A stretch of 64,000 bases of DNA, from IMG/VR virus record IMGVR_UViG_3300014205_000213, positions 1 to 64,000 of that record; one strand, given 5' to 3'. Of the stretch, positions 3,265 through 21,744 are shown in pieces (position 1 is the stretch's first letter; each line of letters starts with the position of its first letter). This stretch comes from a virus (Duplodnaviria > Caudoviricetes). Position numbers and translations under genes: made by a program. The notes under the pieces are model-generated. The model was not told the origin of the DNA. It was given only the letters and a program-made list of their open reading frames with translations, and did no database searches.

Positions 3265-3512
3265 AAATAACAATTAAATCAATCGAAGCGGAAATAATTG
3301 ATACTTCTACTCTATTGGAAGATCAATTCATAATTAATCATTGGATTGTTAAATATGAAGTAAATTTTCCTCCAAGGCAATATACTCACATTGAAGGAAC
3401 TGTTTTACTTGAGTCAGACGATGGAGTCGTGCCTGTACATAAAATCATGAGTTGGTTACATTCTATTTATGATGGTATGGAAAAAAGAATAAACGAAGTG
3501 GTAAGATTATGA
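3261..3512 (+). CDS. hypothetical protein
   Basis: ATGA overlaps at both ends. Confidence 0.65.
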   Translation: MKITIKSIEAEIIDTSTLLEDQFIINHWIVKYEVNFPPRQYTHIEGTVLLESDDGVVPVHKIMSWLHSIYDGMEKRINEVVRL

Positions 3513-4582
3513 TTAAGTCAATTGACATACAAAACTATTTAAGCCATGCCAACAGTCGCCTCGAATTTCATAAAGGAGTTAACGTCATCATTGGAGCGTC
3601 AGACAAAGGAAAGACAGCAGTTATTCGAGCCCTACGATGGGTTGTTCGAAATAAACCCTCCGGTGGATCAATACGATCGTGGTGGGAAGGCAAGACAAAT
3701 GTACGACTGGAAGTAGAGGAGGGGTTTGTTTCTAGGAGTAAAGATAAACAGGATCTCTATATTGTCTCTGCATTCCCAGGGAAGAAGCACACTCTTAAGG
3801 CTTTTGGTACTTCAGTTCCGGAAGAAGTCAGTGGGCTTCTCAATATCGGTGAAGTAAATTTGCAAATGCAATTAGATTCACATTTCCTTTTGAGTAAGAC
3901 ATCTGGCGAAGTCGCTACATATTTTAATAAGGTTGCCAAGTTAGATAAGATAGATATAAGCCAAAAAAATATACGAAGTTGGATACGTATTTTAAAATTT
4001 GAAGGGGAACATACGGATGGAAAGATAAAGGAAAAAACAGAGGAACTCAAAAAGTTTGAACCAATTGATAAAATTGAAACACAACTTGAGGTTGTTGAGG
4101 AAATGGAAAACAGATTAACTCATCTTAAATCTTCCAGGCAAAAATTAGTAAACTTAATAAACCAATATAAGCTAAACAGAATAGAATTTGATAGGAATAA
4201 GCAAATCTTAGTACTGGAAAATTCTGTAGATGATTTGCTCAAGATGTATAAAAGGAAAGAGGAATATGAAATAAAATATTCCAAATTACTTTCTCTTATT
4301 AATCTTATTAGACAGGTAAAGAAAAACATAAGAAAAGTAAATAAGTTAATTTCACTTGAAGAACCTTGTACAAACTTGTTAGAGCTATACAATAAATTAA
4401 ACGAAGTGAAATCCGATAAAATGCACCTCAAAGAGGATATATCTAACCTTAAGTATATACATACATCCTTAAAGGAGGAAAATGAGAAAAAAGCCCGTTT
4501 CCTTTCCTTGTTCAATAAAGAGTTTCCTGATACCTGTCCTTTATGCGGAACAAACATCCCTCATGACCATCATTTAGACTAA
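3509..4582 (+). CDS. sbcC: SbcC/Rad50-like ATPase, N-terminal half
   Basis: IQNYLSH, Walker A GASDKGKT, Q-loop QMQLD, coiled coil, terminal zinc hook CPLCG; no signature or Walker B. Confidence 0.85.
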   Translation: MIKSIDIQNYLSHANSRLEFHKGVNVIIGASDKGKTAVIRALRWVVRNKPSGGSIRSWWEGKTNVRLEVEEGFVSRSKDKQDLYIVSAFPGKKHTLKAFGTSVPEEVSGLLNIGEVNLQMQLDSHFLLSKTSGEVATYFNKVAKLDKIDISQKNIRSWIRILKFEGEHTDGKIKEKTEELKKFEPIDKIETQLEVVEEMENRLTHLKSSRQKLVNLINQYKLNRIEFDRNKQILVLENSVDDLLKMYKRKEEYEIKYSKLLSLINLIRQVKKNIRKVNKLISLEEPCTNLLELYNKLNEVKSDKMHLKEDISNLKYIHTSLKEENEKKARFLSLFNKEFPDTCPLCGTNIPHDHHLD

Positions 4583-4583
4583 T

Positions 4584-5477
4584 ATGAAAAGAACAAGAAG
4601 AAATAAAATAGCCTCTGCAATATTCTGCTCAGATATGCATTTAAGGGAAGATACTCCAGTTTGCCGTACTGATAACTACTCGGAGAGACAATGGATCAAA
4701 GTAGATTTTATTTCAGAACTACAAAAACAATTAGACTGCCCTGTCATTCATGCGGGTGATTTATTTGACCACTGGAAACCAAGTCCTTATTTGTTACGGA
4801 AAGCAATACTACACCTTCCAAATAATTTTTATACCGTGTATGGCCAACACGATTTACCACAACATAATTTAAAGTTAGTCAATAAATGTGGTATAAATGT
4901 ATTAGAAGCTGCAAAAAAATTAACCATACTCCCCACATGTCATTGGGGACAATCCCCAAAAGAAAGTAGTTTATTATTTGCAAGGGAAAGCAGACACGAA
5001 GAAGATAGAAAAGTACTTGTTTGGCATCATCTAACATATATAAGTAAACCATTCCCTGGGGCCACTGGAGGCATGGCACAAGGAATCCTTAGGAAGTATC
5101 CTCAATTTGATTTAATTGTAACTGGAGACAATCACGAATCTTTTGTGGAAGAATATAAAGGACGATTATTGGTAAATACAGGATCTATGATGAGAATGGA
5201 CGCAGATCAAACAAACCATAAACCCTGTGTTTATATTTGGTATGCTGAGGATAATAGTATAGAAGTAAAATATCTTCCATATGAAGAGGGTGTTGTTAGT
5301 CGAGAACACTTAGAACGTAAAAAGCAAAGAGACAAACGTCTTAGTGCTTTTATATCACGTTTGACTGGAAAATATAAAGTGAAAATGAGTTTTGAAGAAA
5401 ACTTACAACAATTTGAAAAAGCGAACAAGGTTGACTCAGAGATAATAAATATTATTTACAAATCCTTAGAATTATGA
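4584..5477 (+). CDS. sbcD: SbcD/Mre11-like metallophosphoesterase nuclease
   Basis: SDMH, AGDLFD, YGQHD, GDNH motifs; lies next to sbcC. Confidence 0.88.
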   Translation: MKRTRRNKIASAIFCSDMHLREDTPVCRTDNYSERQWIKVDFISELQKQLDCPVIHAGDLFDHWKPSPYLLRKAILHLPNNFYTVYGQHDLPQHNLKLVNKCGINVLEAAKKLTILPTCHWGQSPKESSLLFARESRHEEDRKVLVWHHLTYISKPFPGATGGMAQGILRKYPQFDLIVTGDNHESFVEEYKGRLLVNTGSMMRMDADQTNHKPCVYIWYAEDNSIEVKYLPYEEGVVSREHLERKKQRDKRLSAFISRLTGKYKVKMSFEENLQQFEKANKVDSEIINIIYKSLEL

Positions 5478-5707
5478 ATGAATTAATTAAAACCTTAGAA
5501 CGTGCTGTTTGTTCATACAATACAGTACTTAGAAAAAAAGTAAAAGAAATGGATGTTATTGAACTATTGAGAAACGTTCACCCTGCCTTGCGTACTGACT
5601 TCGCATATAACTGTCGAGACACTGGTTTAATACACCCCAGCGAAGTAACTGAATTTATTCAAAAGGAAGAGTCCCATAAACTCAAGAGGAACGCAAAATA
5701 TGTCTAA
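5474..5707 (+). CDS. hypothetical protein
   Basis: Overlapping start and stop with neighbours. Confidence 0.6.
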   Translation: MNELIKTLERAVCSYNTVLRKKVKEMDVIELLRNVHPALRTDFAYNCRDTGLIHPSEVTEFIQKEESHKLKRNAKYV

Positions 5708-5897
5708 ATATCCTACTCCAGTACAAGTATTGGAAGAAAAGTTGAGGGAGCTAAGGAGTGCAAAAACACACTCTTTACTTGCATTTAAAGACAATTTAAT
5801 TAATATTGAAACTCACAATATGCATATAATCAATCTTGATGCAAGAATTAGTATATACAAAAGAGCAATTGAAATATTAACAAACAATAATATTTAG
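5700..5897 (+). CDS. hypothetical protein
   Basis: ORF in operon. Confidence 0.6.
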   Translation: MSKYPTPVQVLEEKLRELRSAKTHSLLAFKDNLINIETHNMHIINLDARISIYKRAIEILTNNNI

Positions 5898-5899
5898 TC

Positions 5900-6151
5900 A
5901 TGTCATTAACAGAAAAGGAACTTCTTGAATTAAAGGAAGATATTAACGATGCCAAAACAAAGGCATCTGAATTAACAGGGCAGGAGCAAGTCCTTTTGAG
6001 ACAATTTAAATTGGACTGGGGATGTAAAACCATTAAGGAAGGAGAGAGTAAACTTGATGAAATTGACAGGAGTCTCTCTTCCTTAGACAAAAAAATTAAA
6101 AAGGTATCAGAAGAATTGGAAGAGCAATTAAATAGTTTGGAGGACGAATAA
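5900..6151 (+). CDS. small coiled-coil protein
   Basis: Heptad-rich L/E/K sequence. Confidence 0.7.
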   Translation: MSLTEKELLELKEDINDAKTKASELTGQEQVLLRQFKLDWGCKTIKEGESKLDEIDRSLSSLDKKIKKVSEELEEQLNSLEDE

Positions 6152-6711
6152 TGGATAGAAGATCGTTTTTTAAAGGAATGTTTGGTGCTGCAGCCATAGC
6201 AGCATTACCCAAACCTGTGTTGGATAAAATGGTAGAAGAGCCAGTTACCCAACCATCCAGGTTACATGAAATTAATGAAGTAGGTAAAGTTGAACGAGGA
6301 TGTCCTTTTGACGAGTCCTTACCTTCATATATAGGAAAAGACGGGTTGGTCTTCTACAAAGGAGATCAATTAGTTGCAACATCTTACACCTTCTCTCTGG
6401 GCATGAAATGTGATTTTGTTGATGTTACTTCCTTGGATAGTCCACATTACCCTAAATGGATTTTAGCAAATAGATCATGGCAGTTAAGTACACAGCGTAT
6501 AAATTGGTTTGCTAATCCAGAAGAAATTCTTTTAACCCAGGAATCTCTAAATTTTATAATGAAAAATAAAGATTGTCAAATGACTGGGGAAGTTATGTTG
6601 TCATGCATGGAAACAAGCCTCCAAATAGGACATCCAAAATACCAAAACTGCATATTTGAGGGATCAGGTAATGTCACAATAGTGGTAGAAAATCATGACA
6701 AAAGAAATTAG
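6151..6711 (+). CDS. Tat-signal protein with a tail-tube-like domain
   Basis: N-terminus MDRRSFFKGMFGAAAIAALP; DFVDVTSLDS resembles DTIDVTSLDS of the tail tube at 21307-21744. Confidence 0.6.
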   Translation: MDRRSFFKGMFGAAAIAALPKPVLDKMVEEPVTQPSRLHEINEVGKVERGCPFDESLPSYIGKDGLVFYKGDQLVATSYTFSLGMKCDFVDVTSLDSPHYPKWILANRSWQLSTQRINWFANPEEILLTQESLNFIMKNKDCQMTGEVMLSCMETSLQIGHPKYQNCIFEGSGNVTIVVENHDKRN

Positions 6712-7315
6712 GAACAGACTGGAACGCATAAAAGGGCAAAGAGATCAGATATCTCAAGATTTGAAAGACCTTAAGGGAAAAAGTGCTTCTTCCAAACGTT
6801 CTTTAATTAAACATATGAAAGCACTTGAGATAGTTAAAATTGTTGGTATTGAAACACAAAAGCAGTTACAGTACCATATCGCAGACATAACCTCACTTGC
6901 TTTGGAAGCCGTCTTTGATGACCCTTACGAATTAGTTGTTGAATTTGTGGAGAGAAGGAACAGATCTGAATGTGATTTATACTTTACAAGAAAAGGAAAC
7001 AAGGTAGATCCTATGGAAGCCGCTGGTGTTGGTGCTGTAGATGTTGCATCATTTGCCCTAAGAATTGCAACACTAAGTATGTCCACTCCACATTTAAGGA
7101 ATGTGGTTATATTGGATGAACCATTTAAGCATTTAAAAGGGGATAATGAAAATCATAGAGTGTTAAATATGATAAACGAAATATCTCGAAGGATGAATTT
7201 ACAAATAATTATGGTTAGTGATGAACGTATTCCTCGAGAGGATATTATTGAAGCGTCGGATAGAGTATTTGAGGTAAAGAAAAGAAAAGGAGTTTCAAAA
7301 GTTGTACAGTTATGA
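6695..7315 (+). CDS. sbcC: SbcC/Rad50-like ATPase, C-terminal half
   Basis: Coiled coil, signature-like AAGVGAVDVASFALR, Walker B/D-loop VILDEPFKHL. Confidence 0.85.
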   Translation: MTKEIRNRLERIKGQRDQISQDLKDLKGKSASSKRSLIKHMKALEIVKIVGIETQKQLQYHIADITSLALEAVFDDPYELVVEFVERRNRSECDLYFTRKGNKVDPMEAAGVGAVDVASFALRIATLSMSTPHLRNVVILDEPFKHLKGDNENHRVLNMINEISRRMNLQIIMVSDERIPREDIIEASDRVFEVKKRKGVSKVVQL

Positions 7316-8469
7316 AAAAAGTAGTATCAACAGAAAAAAGACCAATCAAGTTATGGTTAGATGAAATTGAAGAAGGTGCAATAGAACAAGCAAAGAATCT
7401 TGCCAATCTTCCATTTGCTTATAAGCATATAGCCATTATGCCAGATGCACATCAAGGTTATGGGATGCCTATTGGTGGTGTGCTTGCTACTCAAGGGGTT
7501 ATAATCCCAAATGCGGTAGGTGTGGATATTGGCTGTGGAATGTGTGCTGTAAGAACATCGCTAACAGACATATCAAAAGATGATCTTAAAAAAATTATGG
7601 GTAAGATCAGAGAGGTTGTGCCGGTGGGATTTGCACATCAGAAAATAAAACAATCTTCCGGCAATATGCCTTTCTCTTCATTCGGACAAGTGGTTGCAAA
7701 AGAGTTAGAGTCGGCTCATAAACAACTCGGAACTCTTGGTGGTGGTAATCACTTTATTGAGATTCAAAAAGGATCAGATGGTTATGTATGGATAATGATA
7801 CATTCCGGTTCCCGAAATCTTGGTAAAAAAGTTGCTGACTATTATAATAAAGTAGCTCAAAAATTAAACGAGCGATGGTATTCAGTAGTTAACAAGAAAT
7901 TGGATTTGGCATTTCTTCCAATAGAGATTGATGAAGCAAAGGCTTATAAGTGTGAGATGGATTACTGCGTGGATTTCGCTCTCGCCAACAGAAGGTTAAT
8001 GATGGAAAATATTAAGTGGTGTTTTACAGATATTGTGAGTCGTATTGAATATGACAAAATGATAAATATTGCACACAACTACGCTCGTTGGGAGAATCAT
8101 TTTGGTCATAATGTGATCATTCATCGCAAGGGAGCTACATCTGCAGGGCTTGGTGAGGTAGGAATCGTACCTGGATCACAAGGAACATTATCATATATTG
8201 TTAAAGGCCTTGGCAATCAGGAGTCATTTACTTCATGCTCACATGGTGCAGGAAGAAGGATGGGGCGTAATGAAGCTATGAAAAAACTCGATCTTGAATC
8301 GGAAATAAAACTCATGGACGATCAAGGAATTATTCATGGTATAAGGAACGTGGCTGATTTAGATGAGGCGCCTGGAGCATATAAGGATATTGATGTTGTA
8401 ATGGCTAATCAAGCAGACCTCGTAGAGATTATAGTTGAATTAAAACCGCTTGCAGTTATTAAGGGATAA
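7312..8469 (+). CDS. rtcB: RtcB RNA ligase
   Basis: MPDAHQGYGMPIGG, VGVDIGCG, GTLGGGNHFIE, HNY, HRKGAT, SHGAGR, DEAPGAYK. Confidence 0.96.
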   Translation: MKKVVSTEKRPIKLWLDEIEEGAIEQAKNLANLPFAYKHIAIMPDAHQGYGMPIGGVLATQGVIIPNAVGVDIGCGMCAVRTSLTDISKDDLKKIMGKIREVVPVGFAHQKIKQSSGNMPFSSFGQVVAKELESAHKQLGTLGGGNHFIEIQKGSDGYVWIMIHSGSRNLGKKVADYYNKVAQKLNERWYSVVNKKLDLAFLPIEIDEAKAYKCEMDYCVDFALANRRLMMENIKWCFTDIVSRIEYDKMINIAHNYARWENHFGHNVIIHRKGATSAGLGEVGIVPGSQGTLSYIVKGLGNQESFTSCSHGAGRRMGRNEAMKKLDLESEIKLMDDQGIIHGIRNVADLDEAPGAYKDIDVVMANQADLVEIIVELKPLAVIKG

Positions 8470-8792: not shown

Positions 8793-9218
8793 ATGAAAAC
8801 ATTTTTAGTATTCTTATTGCTTTTGATATCTATGTCTGTTACAGGACAAAGATATGCGGTTTATCTAAGTGTTCAACCTGCCGACCTTGGTGTAGGTGTC
8901 AGAGCGGATTTAGGTTATGTTTATGGATCATTCTCCTATGGTAATTGGGGGGTATACAAACAGACTTATATTCATAACCATACCAAAGTTACGGTAGGAG
9001 GCATAATTCCATTGAAGCAAAAAGATGAATGTAGATATGAGATAACAGCAGGAGTCAATTATCATAAAGCAAACTACCCAGACAATATTAGGAGATCTCT
9101 AAAAAGTACTTTGTCTGGAGAAGGTGGATTTGCTGTTTATATACGTGGTATATCCATAGGTGCTCGTACTGATGTAAGGAGATGGGAACCATGTATTGAT
9201 TTTGGATTTAATTTTTAA
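8793..9218 (+). CDS. secreted, probable small outer-membrane beta-barrel protein
   Basis: Signal peptide, alternating aromatic/Gly strands, C-terminal DFGFNF. Confidence 0.6.
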   Translation: MKTFLVFLLLLISMSVTGQRYAVYLSVQPADLGVGVRADLGYVYGSFSYGNWGVYKQTYIHNHTKVTVGGIIPLKQKDECRYEITAGVNYHKANYPDNIRRSLKSTLSGEGGFAVYIRGISIGARTDVRRWEPCIDFGFNF

Positions 9219-21306: not shown

Positions 21307-21744
21307 CTACATCCCTAATGCAGCACTTGCGCCTGAATCAGTTTCAACAGAACCACTTACCTGAATTGTAACATCCGCTGTGATCTTATCATCAGTTGGA
21401 ATATTTAAAGGCAATTCAGTGACCAGACCTTCAAACTCCACGGTAGTGGTTTCTGCGTCCGGTAGAACAATCCGATAATTACCAAGTGCGTTGCTTTCAA
21501 AGTCTGTCTTAAACAAGTCGTAAGTCTGACGTGTAAAATTCATTGAAAGCTGAACAGTACCTGGATTACGAAATCCTCCTTTGAACTCTCGATATCCTCC
21601 CGTACTATCCAGGGATGTTACATCAATTGTATCCCTTGACATACCAGGACCGGTAATCGAGTTTATTTCAGCAATGGCAGCCCATGCGCTACCAGTCCAT
21701 CTCTGAAATATTGTTCCTACTCCTGCTACAGCATTACTTGCCAT
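21307..21744 (-). CDS. major tail tube protein
   Basis: GPGMSRDTIDVTSLDSTGGYREF; start at 21744 preceded by AGGAGGT. Confidence 0.85.
   Translation of the reverse strand: MASNAVAGVGTIFQRWTGSAWAAIAEINSITGPGMSRDTIDVTSLDSTGGYREFKGGFRNPGTVQLSMNFTRQTYDLFKTDFESNALGNYRIVLPDAETTTVEFEGLVTELPLNIPTDDKITADVTIQVSGSVETDSGASAALGM

What the first reader, a model, noticed from the sequence alone, without database searches (positions are those of the whole stretch)
6151..6711. Twin-arginine-exported paralog of the tail tube inside the recombination operon
Seen: DRRSFFK followed by a hydrophobic stretch fits the Tat consensus (S/T-RRxFLK). The C-domain (FSLGMKCDFVDVTSLDS...RSWQLS...FEGSGNV) echoes this phage's tail tube (GMSRDTIDVTSLDS...QVSGSV). 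Established: Tat exports folded proteins, and tail tubes and Hcp share a hexameric ring fold. Inference: an early, periplasmic tube-like ring that could block superinfecting tails or DNA, or act as a decoy. I know of no described example.
Basis: partly seen in the sequence, partly recalled or inferred. Interest (0 to 1): 0.7.

Follow-up and report, generated by a model that had tools for sequence, protein, structure and literature searches.

The report
Export-tagged copy of phage tail tube
An uncultured tailed phage carries, among its DNA-repair genes, an optional small gene that joins a bacterial folded-protein (Tat) export leader to a fast-evolving copy of its own tail-tube protein; I found no paper describing this design, and its job, possibly blocking rival phages at the cell envelope, is untested.

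Summary
ORF 6151-6711 (+) is a real 186-aa gene. Residues 1-20 fit the Tat consensus (Z-R-R-x-F-F-K, then a 12-residue uncharged stretch ending in Pro-Lys). Residues 31-62 form a disordered linker. Residues 63-180 fold with high confidence (pLDDT >90) as a siphovirus tail tube.

Every top fold match is a tube or Hcp: GTA, monocin, lambda gpV (Foldseek E down to 1.7e-5, Z 8-9). The family profile hits the monocin tube by sequence (E 1.1e-5). One relative (L060) matches this phage's real tube by plain BLASTP (31% over 108 aa, E 3e-8). So it is a colinear tube paralog.

About 46 clusters of uncultured phage proteins share the design. The leader is under strong purifying selection (0 non-synonymous against 5 synonymous changes). 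The tube body evolves fast (pN/pS 0.52; 22-34% identity where real tubes keep 65-77%).

The gene is not part of the SbcCD machinery. Only 15 of 80 related loci have it, in a variable slot next to the SbcC C-half.

Export, ring formation and the exclusion or decoy role remain untested. This scan has already noted the same design (Tat leader plus a copy of a virion protein among replication genes) on other phage DNA. Interest is moderate to high.

The parts
6151..6711 (+). Whole gene, 186 aa (P0002): Tat-type leader, linker and tail-tube-fold domain
   Evidence: ORF list and translation. Homologues at 75-81% identity lie in the same gene order. 46 representative clusters match at E<=1e-3.
6151..6210 (+). 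Residues 1-20: n-region with the twin-arginine motif (Z-R-R-x-F-F-K) and a 12-residue uncharged h-region ending in Pro
   Evidence: Read from the sequence. Pfam TAT_signal scores 13.6 bits, below its 22.7 cut-off. TIGR01409 matches 18 of 47 family members and the Tat leader of BagZ_FevE matches 22 of 47. Window versus L003 over codons 1-31: 0 non-synonymous and 5 synonymous changes.
6211..6240 (+). Residues 21-30: conserved Lys-x-Val-x-x-x-Ile/Met-Glu segment after the h-region. It is predicted helical and has no AxA signal-peptidase motif
   Evidence: Alignment A2. Mean pairwise identity is 58% for residues 1-30 against 26% for the tube domain. AF2 predicts a helix at 21-29.
6241..6336 (+). 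Residues 31-62: Pro/Glu-rich linker of variable length, predicted disordered
   Evidence: pLDDT is below 50 for residues 35-61. Mean pairwise identity is 20% and the alignment shows many length differences.
6337..6690 (+). Residues 63-180: complete, colinear tail-tube beta-sandwich domain with the long hairpin
   Evidence: pLDDT is above 90. Foldseek PDB: GTA tube 6tba E 1.7e-5, monocin tube 8qhs 3.9e-5, plus lambda gpV, AFP/PVC tube and Hcp. VIA-align Z 8-9. BFVD: TP901-1-type major tail proteins, E 3.6e-8. ESM Atlas: PF06199 cluster, rmsd 2.7 A over 107 residues. Family profile against 8qhs_A: E 1.1e-5.
21307..21744 (-). The phage's real major tail (tube) protein, 145 aa, the parent family of the paralog
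   Evidence: PHROG 158, E 2e-21. PF16460, PF16461 and PF06199. It lies next to the tail chaperone and tape-measure genes. It is 65-77% identical among related phages.
5900..6151 (+). Upstream neighbour: 83-aa coiled-coil ORF that is conserved across the lineage and marks the left edge of the variable slot
   Evidence: Relatives of this ORF stand just before the slot or before SbcC_C in most of the 80 loci.
6695..7315 (+). Downstream neighbour: C-terminal ATPase half of a split SbcC/Rad50-like protein, the right edge of the slot
   Evidence: PHROG 15167 ATPase, E 2.6e-19. It is 47-60% identical in relatives.
3509..5477 (+). Context: the SbcC N-terminal half (Walker A, coiled coil, ending in a Cys-x-x-Cys hook) and an SbcD-like nuclease
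   Evidence: Pfam AAA_23, SMC_N and Metallophos_2. PHROG 16465 and PHROG 77.

Best explanation
P0002 is an accessory phage gene, transcribed with the replication/recombination genes. Its product is a diverged copy of the phage's own tail-tube protein carrying a Tat-type export leader.

Proposed mechanism:
1. The tube domain folds in the cytoplasm.
2. The twin-arginine leader takes it through the host Tat translocon.
3. [quoted passage not shown] A flexible Pro-rich linker holds the tube domain out in the periplasm.
4. There the tube domain uses the tube fold's surfaces for stacking on other tube-fold rings (tube end, distal tail protein, hub) or for contacting the tape-measure protein. It engages the tip or channel of an incoming siphophage tail and blocks genome entry. 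This would be superinfection exclusion by mimicry of a virion part.

What is shown and what is inferred:
- Shown here: gene, leader motif, fold, homology to the tube, selection pattern and accessory distribution.
- Inferred: export, about 0.6.
- Inferred: tethering rather than release, about 0.5 given export.
- Inferred: exclusion/decoy function, about 0.3 overall.
For: Leader:
- It matches both the Berks consensus S/T-R-R-x-F-L-K and the general Z-R-R-x-phi-phi (definitions from PMC13673990; sequence).
- 36 of 47 family members have RR, 7 have RK, 1 has RG, and 3 are truncated at the start.
- The twin-arginine block persists while the h-region drifts in distant members (L058, L060, L080, P0043, P0048), as expected of a real signal.
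- Independent Tat-leader HMMs hit the N-terminus in 18 and 22 of 47 members.
- The leader shows 0 non-synonymous against 5 synonymous changes, so it is selected as protein.
- It is the only such motif in the genome.

Body:
- It has the tube fold and tube homology.

Arms-race signature:
- The body is 22-34% identical among phages whose real tubes are 65-77% identical and whose SbcD/RecA are 50-67% identical.
- pN/pS of the body is 0.52.
- The hairpin loop ranges from 4 to 45 residues.

Accessory distribution:
- The gene is present in 15 of 80 related loci, in a variable slot.
- Neighbouring slots in relatives hold lipoprotein- or Sec-signal ORFs.

Host:
- A likely diderm Bacteroidota host is suggested by the best large-terminase (TerL) hits, Cellulophaga and Croceibacter phages.
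- The TatA control search is positive in Bacteroides thetaiotaomicron.

Established background (my own knowledge; abstracts of the T4 and T5 papers seen):
- Lytic phages make early envelope-located exclusion proteins, such as T4 Spackle and T5 Llp.
Against: - No export test was possible. SignalP and TatP were not on hand.
- P0002 scores below the curated cut-off of Pfam TAT_signal (13.6 against 22.7 bits).
- The uncharged stretch is only 12 residues in most members, short for a Tat h-region and too short for a stable membrane anchor unless the following Pro-Lys-x-Val-Val segment contributes.
- One member has R-G in place of R-R.
- A mimic that must bind conserved tail parts might be expected to stay as conserved as the tube, but the body diverges quickly.
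- Signal-less tube-like ORFs exist in the same neighbourhood in two relatives (L029, L053), so the tube-like domain may also act in the cytoplasm.
- The host is unknown.
- Expression timing is inferred from gene position only.
Confidence: 0.4

Rival explanations
1. Cytoplasmic decoy against host immunity that senses tail-tube proteins. The early tube look-alike would occupy a tube-sensing defence protein (DSR2-like) without triggering it. The hydrophobic N-terminus would only park the complex at the membrane, or would carry the bound sensor out by Tat 'hitch-hiking'.
For: DSR2 is activated by binding a phage tube protein, and phages counter it with a separate inhibitor (abstracts of PMC10981675 and PMC11087589). 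DSR2-tube complexes are among the structural matches of the model (8zc9, 8yln, 8wya). The fast-evolving body and accessory distribution also fit an anti-defence gene. Signal-less tube-like ORFs in L029 and L053 fit a cytoplasmic role.
Against: This reading does not explain why a consensus Tat leader is the best-conserved and most strongly selected part of the protein. No defence gene or host is known here. A decoy for a sensor of the real tube should resemble that tube closely, yet most members share only about 10-15% identity with it.
Confidence: 0.15
2. Tail-assembly interference aimed at co-infecting competitor phages. A defective tube subunit made early would co-assemble with, or cap, the growing tails of rivals in the cytoplasm, acting as a dominant-negative tube.
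For: Interference with tail assembly is a documented strategy of mobile elements: the Tai systems, which target the central tail fibre (PMC11364771). The complete tube fold is retained, and in P0002 the hairpin has the same length as in the real tube.
Against: The phage's own, highly similar tube would be the first victim. The conserved Tat-type leader and long disordered linker have no role in this model. Hairpin lengths of 4 to 45 residues argue against co-polymerisation in much of the family.
Confidence: 0.1
3. Accessory subunit of the split SbcC/SbcD nuclease. A tube-like ring would encircle DNA as a clamp or gate for end processing, and the N-terminal peptide would be a protein-protein docking motif that only looks like a Tat leader.
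For: The gene lies next to the SbcC C-half in every locus with enough flank, even where the order is swapped (L015-L017), and is translationally coupled to its neighbours. Tube and Hcp rings have a DNA-sized lumen (established knowledge). Thirteen of 46 members carry Lys-rich hairpin insertions.
Against: 65 of 80 loci with the same SbcC C-half, coiled-coil ORF and SbcD lack the gene, and many carry unrelated small ORFs in the slot. It evolves much faster than SbcC/SbcD. The exact Tat consensus with a drifting h-region would have to be coincidence.
Confidence: 0.05
4. The leader is the active part. The protein would engage TatBC and jam or redirect the host Tat pathway, shutting down export of host periplasmic enzymes or defence effectors. 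The stably folded tube domain would act as a plug.
For: The leader and the segment after it are much more conserved than a targeting signal usually needs (58% against 26%). There is no cleavage site.
Against: There is no precedent that I know of or found. The tube domain would not need to keep a complete tube fold at pLDDT >90 across the family just to act as a plug.
Confidence: 0.05

Closest known systems
Siphovirus major tail (tube) proteins of the lambda gpV-N / TP901-1 type (Pfam PF16460, PF16461, PF06199), e.g. monocin MttP (PDB 8qhs), GTA tube (6tba) and this phage's own tube at 21307-21744
   Same: Same fold, in colinear order, over residues 63-180. Sequence homology is detectable by profile, and one family member (L060) bridges the family to the real tube.
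   Different: It carries an N-terminal Tat-type leader and a disordered linker. It is encoded in the replication/recombination module, not the tail module. It is optional in the lineage and evolves 2-3 times faster than the real tube. The hairpin needed for ring stacking varies from 4 to 45 residues across the family.
Class III Tat substrates (uncleaved leader as membrane anchor, e.g. Rieske proteins) and class I Tat substrates
   Same: It has the Z-R-R-x-phi-phi motif at the n/h boundary, a moderately hydrophobic Gly/Ala-rich h-region, and a Pro with a basic residue after it. No AxA site follows, as in uncleaved leaders (definitions from PMC13673990).
   Different: The cargo is a cofactor-less virion-protein copy encoded by a phage. 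The h-region is only about 12 residues. Export is unproven.
Envelope-located superinfection-exclusion proteins made by phages (T4 Spackle, which inhibits the gp5 tail lysozyme; T5 Llp, which blocks FhuA; TP-J34 Ltp and HK97 gp15, which act on tape-measure-dependent DNA entry)
   Same: It is a small, non-essential, fast-evolving gene expressed outside the structural module and targeted to the envelope. The proposed action is on the incoming tail or on DNA entry.
   Different: There is no sequence or fold relation to any of them. Those proteins use Sec or lipoprotein signals or membrane helices. None is a copy of a virion protein. The function here is only inferred.
Hcp/TssD of type VI secretion
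   Same: Same tube superfold (Z 7.4-8.5, e.g. 8z7k, 4hkh).
   Different: There is no T6SS context. It is closer to siphovirus tubes than to Hcp. Hcp has no signal peptide.

Membership tests
Phage tail tube protein superfamily (PF06199 / PF16460 / PF16461) | Tube beta-sandwich fold with long beta-hairpin | tested here: met
   The AF2 model has pLDDT >90 for residues 62-180. All top Foldseek, VIA-align, BFVD and Atlas matches are tubes.
Phage tail tube protein superfamily (PF06199 / PF16460 / PF16461) | Sequence match to the family | tested here: met
   Pfam itself gives no hit for P0002 at E<=0.1. The match comes from other tests:
- Family profile against the solved tube 8qhs: E 1.1e-5.
- hhalign against the phage's own tube: E 8.9e-5.
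- Family member L060 against the own tube by BLASTP: E 3e-8.
- An HMM built from the real tubes of this phage and three relatives detects L060, L053, P0004, P0025 and P0002.
Phage tail tube protein superfamily (PF06199 / PF16460 / PF16461) | Encoded in the tail module beside the chaperone and tape-measure genes, one per genome, as a virion component | tested here: not met
   It lies on the opposite strand, 15 kb from the tail module, between the sbcC/sbcD genes. The genuine tube is a different gene. Presence in the virion could not be tested.
Phage tail tube protein superfamily (PF06199 / PF16460 / PF16461) | Assembles into stacked hexameric rings | not testable with these tools
Tat (twin-arginine) substrates | Z-R-R-x-phi-phi motif between a short polar n-region and the h-region | tested here: met
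   D-R-R-S-F-F-K at residues 2-8. 36 of 47 family members have RR and 7 have RK. Consensus definition from PMC13673990.
Tat (twin-arginine) substrates | Uncharged, moderately hydrophobic h-region following the motif | tested here: met
   The stretch is 12 uncharged Gly/Ala/Ile/Phe-rich residues and reaches 16-21 in members that lack the Lys after the Pro. This is short compared with typical leaders (from my own knowledge, not measured here).
Tat (twin-arginine) substrates | Curated HMM score (PF10518, TIGR01409) | tested here: inconclusive
   PF10518 gives 13.6 bits against a 22.7 cut-off for P0002, and 6 of 47 members match at E<=0.1. TIGR01409 matches 18 of 47 members at E<=1, best 4.7e-4. 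These models are very short.
Tat (twin-arginine) substrates | Signal-peptidase site (AxA) or lipobox in the c-region | tested here: not met
   No AxA or lipobox follows the h-region in P0002 or in the consensus. This is compatible with class III (uncleaved) substrates only.
Tat (twin-arginine) substrates | Tat-dependent translocation | not testable with these tools
   This needs fractionation or reporter fusions in tat+ and tat- cells.
Superinfection-exclusion proteins | Expression blocks entry of the same or related phages | not testable with these tools
   There is no cultured phage or host. Only indirect features were met: accessory distribution (15 of 80 loci), fast evolution and predicted envelope targeting.
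SbcCD / Rad50-Mre11 complex subunit | Co-inherited with SbcC and SbcD | tested here: not met
   65 of 80 loci with the SbcC C-half lack the gene within 4 kb.

The most novel reading that the evidence does not exclude
Tailed phages of several unrelated lineages export copies of their own virion proteins (here the tail tube) through the host Tat pathway early in infection. These copies would form a previously unrecognised class of envelope-located mimics that cap or mislead the tails of superinfecting phages, or shield progeny. This gene family, with about 46 clusters, would be one well-defined, experimentally tractable example.
Probability: 0.3. Interest if true: 0.8.

Novelty: new variant of a known kind. 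Interest (0 to 1): 0.62.

Why it matters
Both building blocks, the tube fold and the Tat leader, are textbook items. Their fusion in an early, optional, fast-evolving phage gene is not described in any paper I could find.

If the protein is exported, two things follow:
- It would be the first case of a phage re-using a virion part outside the virion at the cell envelope.
- It would give a concrete handle on how siphophage genome entry can be blocked in diderm hosts.

The same design recurs in other phage lineages noted by this scan, which suggests a general strategy rather than an oddity. If the protein is not exported, the strongly selected Tat-like peptide itself needs an explanation.

Tried and rejected
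No result or unavailable:
- PHROGs gave no family for P0002. Pfam gave only a sub-threshold TAT_signal match.
- tblastn against 50,697 cultured phage records found nothing, and there is no close cultured relative of the region.
- Complex prediction for a homo-oligomer of residues 60-186 was unavailable, so ring formation was not examined.
- The ESM Atlas feature search gave only a weak lead (0.75, PF06841).

Host clues:
- No tRNA genes were found.
- The Bacteroidota -7 promoter motif is not enriched (88 observed against 87 expected).
- The sigma-70 scan is at chance level.
- The phage encodes no TatA, and no second Tat-tagged ORF exists in the genome. This differs from some phages noted earlier by the scan.

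Ideas considered and rejected:
- Circular permutation of the tube domain, as reported for a similar family elsewhere in the scan. Rejected here: the alignments to 8qhs, to the own tube and to L060 are colinear.
- Conservation of the leader as a DNA or RNA element or recent recombination. Rejected: five synonymous differences fall within 31 invariant codons.
- A core SbcCD subunit. Rejected by the 15-of-80 distribution.

Full report
**1. What is in the sequence**

ORF 6151-6711 (+) is the only long frame at that place. It starts with an ATG that overlaps the stop codon of the upstream 83-aa coiled-coil ORF and ends 17 nt inside the next gene, so it is tightly packed into a co-directional gene string. 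That string runs as follows:
- RecA-like gene (445-1506).
- SbcC N-terminal half, ending in a Cys-x-x-Cys hook (3509-4582).
- SbcD-like phosphoesterase (4584-5477).
- Three small coiled-coil ORFs.
- The gene in question.
- SbcC C-terminal ATPase half (6695-7315).
- RtcB (7312-8469).

The record is a 73,151-bp viral contig rated 100% complete. It is a siphovirus: tube at 21307-21744 (-), tail chaperone, tape measure, portal and terminase on the minus strand. Its terminase is nearest to those of Cellulophaga and Croceibacter phages at 36-38% identity. That hints at a Bacteroidota, and therefore diderm, host, but the evidence is weak.

**2. The leader**

Residues 2-8 read D-R-R-S-F-F-K, followed by 12 uncharged residues ending in Pro, then Lys. 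This fits the Berks consensus and the general Z-R-R-x-phi-phi motif (definitions read in PMC13673990). Further points:
- It is the only ORF start in the six frames of the whole genome with such a combination.
- P0002 itself scores below Pfam's cut-off for TAT_signal (13.6 against 22.7 bits).
- Across the family, TIGR01409 matches 18 of 47 members and the Tat leader of BagZ/FevE matches 22 of 47.
- 36 of 47 members have RR, 7 have RK, 1 has RG, and 3 start late, probably from truncated gene calls.
- In the more distant members (L058, L060, L080, P0043, P0048) the twin-arginine block is kept while the h-region changes sequence. This is how true signal peptides evolve.
- Between the window and its 81%-identical relative L003, codons 1-31 show five synonymous and no non-synonymous differences. 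The conservation is therefore selected at protein level and is not a nucleic-acid element.
- No AxA site or lipobox follows. If the protein is exported, an uncleaved, tethering leader (class III of PMC13673990) is a serious option.
- The phage has no TatA of its own. The same search is positive in 12 of 14 control genomes, including Bacteroides thetaiotaomicron.

**3. The body**

A full scan of 1.8 billion representative proteins found 46 clusters at E<=1e-3. Nearly all are 160-217 aa and align from residue 1 (alignment A2). Evidence that the body is a tube domain:
- AlphaFold2 with this alignment gives pLDDT >90 for residues 62-180 and <50 for the 35-61 linker.
- Foldseek against the PDB returns only tube-fold proteins at the top: GTA tube 6tba (E 1.7e-5), monocin tube 8qhs and 9j1k, AFP/PVC tubes, lambda gpV, 80alpha and Hcp.
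- VIA-align gives Z 8-9 over about 120 residues.
- BFVD gives TP901-1-type major tail proteins from E 3.6e-8, including a Cellulophaga phage tail protein.
- The ESM Atlas gives a PF06199 cluster at rmsd 2.7 A over 107 residues.
- By sequence alone, the family profile hits monocin MttP at E 1.1e-5, colinearly.
- hhalign against the phage's own tube gives E 8.9e-5 over 94 columns.
- A family member from another contig (L060) aligns with this phage's tube by plain BLASTP: 31% over 108 aa, E 3e-8.
- An HMM built from the real tubes of this phage and three relatives recovers L060, L053, P0004, P0025, P0043 and P0002.

The domain is a complete, unpermuted tube domain.

**4. How it evolves**

- Real tubes of four related phages are 65-77% identical to this one. 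SbcD, RecA and the SbcC C-half are 47-67% identical.
- The tube-like proteins of the same phages are only 22-34% identical.
- Within the family, residues 1-30 average 58% pairwise identity, the linker 20% and the tube domain 26%.
- pN/pS is 0 for the leader and 0.52 for the domain.
- The hairpin loop, which in real tubes makes ring-to-ring contacts (established knowledge), ranges from 4 to 45 residues. Thirteen of 46 members have Lys-rich insertions there.

A fixed address label on a rapidly changing body is what is expected of a protein in an arms race.

**5. Is it part of the recombination machinery?**

In every locus found through the gene itself, it lies next to the SbcC C-half, usually before it and once after it. 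I then searched IMG/VR with the SbcC C-half instead. 215 loci matched and 80 were fetched. Only 15 of them have a tube-like gene within 4 kb. In the other 65, the space between the conserved coiled-coil ORF and the SbcC C-half is empty or holds small unrelated ORFs. The slot after the SbcC C-half often holds ORFs with lipoprotein- or Sec-type leaders. The gene is thus an optional insert in a hot spot for accessory genes, several of them envelope-directed. It is not a subunit of SbcCD.

**6. Best explanation and rivals**

The simplest reading that uses all parts is a Tat-targeted, probably membrane-tethered, periplasmic tube-fold domain acting on incoming tails or DNA entry, that is, superinfection exclusion by mimicry. 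My estimates:

| Claim | Probability |
|---|---|
| Tube paralog with a Tat-type leader | about 0.85 |
| Export | about 0.6 |
| Exclusion/decoy role | about 0.3 |

Rivals:
- A cytoplasmic decoy for tube-sensing immunity such as DSR2 (papers listed). Two signal-less tube-like ORFs in relatives (L029, L053) keep this open.
- A dominant-negative tube against competitors, compare the Tai systems (PMC11364771).
- An SbcCD accessory ring, disfavoured by the distribution.
- A Tat-jamming plug.

None of these explains the leader as well.

**7. Novelty**

Six full-text searches found no paper describing a Tat leader on a phage tube or virion-protein copy. The Tat review lists no phage substrates.

This scan's own earlier notes report the same design on other DNA: Tat leaders on tube, sheath or capsid copies among replication genes of other uncultured phages. 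Those are unchecked AI notes and I use them as leads only. Two of their features were tested here and are absent in this genome: a circular permutation of the tube domain, and additional Tat-tagged genes or a phage TatA.

**8. Limits**

- No signal-peptide predictor, complex prediction, expression data, host or cultured relative was available.
- All functional statements are inference.

Noticed in passing
window 3509-7315: The SbcC/Rad50-like ATPase is split. The N-half ends at the Cys-x-x-Cys hook, SbcD follows, then three small coiled-coil ORFs, and the C-half ATPase is a separate 206-aa gene. The last coiled-coil ORF (5900-6151) is conserved directly upstream of the C-half region in most of 80 related loci, so it may supply the missing return arm of the coiled coil.
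   Followed up: partly
L057:4602-4961, L063:4597-4881, L069:4603-4863, L044:1832-2266: In related phages the slots around the SbcC C-half hold small ORFs with lipoprotein-type (…S-C) or Sec-type leaders. This region looks like a hot spot for envelope-directed accessory genes.
   Followed up: no
Alignment A2, loop equivalent to P0002 residues 91-103 (window 6421-6459): Thirteen of 46 family members carry 24-45-residue Lys-rich insertions in the tube hairpin loop, while others shorten it to 4-6 residues. The loop is the most variable part of the domain and may be its binding surface.
   Followed up: partly
L029:3511-4092 and L053:5341-5829: Tube-like ORFs without any leader lie in the same neighbourhood in two relatives. 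The one in L029 sits in the same slot and has an extra acidic C-terminal tail of about 70 aa.
   Followed up: partly
L060:2629-3213: This Tat-tagged family member has a body much closer to the real tube (31% identity, E 3e-8). That suggests repeated or recent recruitment or gene conversion from the tube gene.
   Followed up: partly
window 8793-9218: A 141-aa ORF has a Sec-type leader and a Gly/Tyr-rich body with no Pfam or PHROG hit. It may be a small outer-membrane or periplasmic protein. A similar leader appears in L044.
   Followed up: no
window 7312-8469 versus L001:11165-12322: RtcB is 100% identical at protein level between this phage and a relative whose neighbouring genes are only 56-80% identical. 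This indicates recent mosaic exchange within the module.
   Followed up: no
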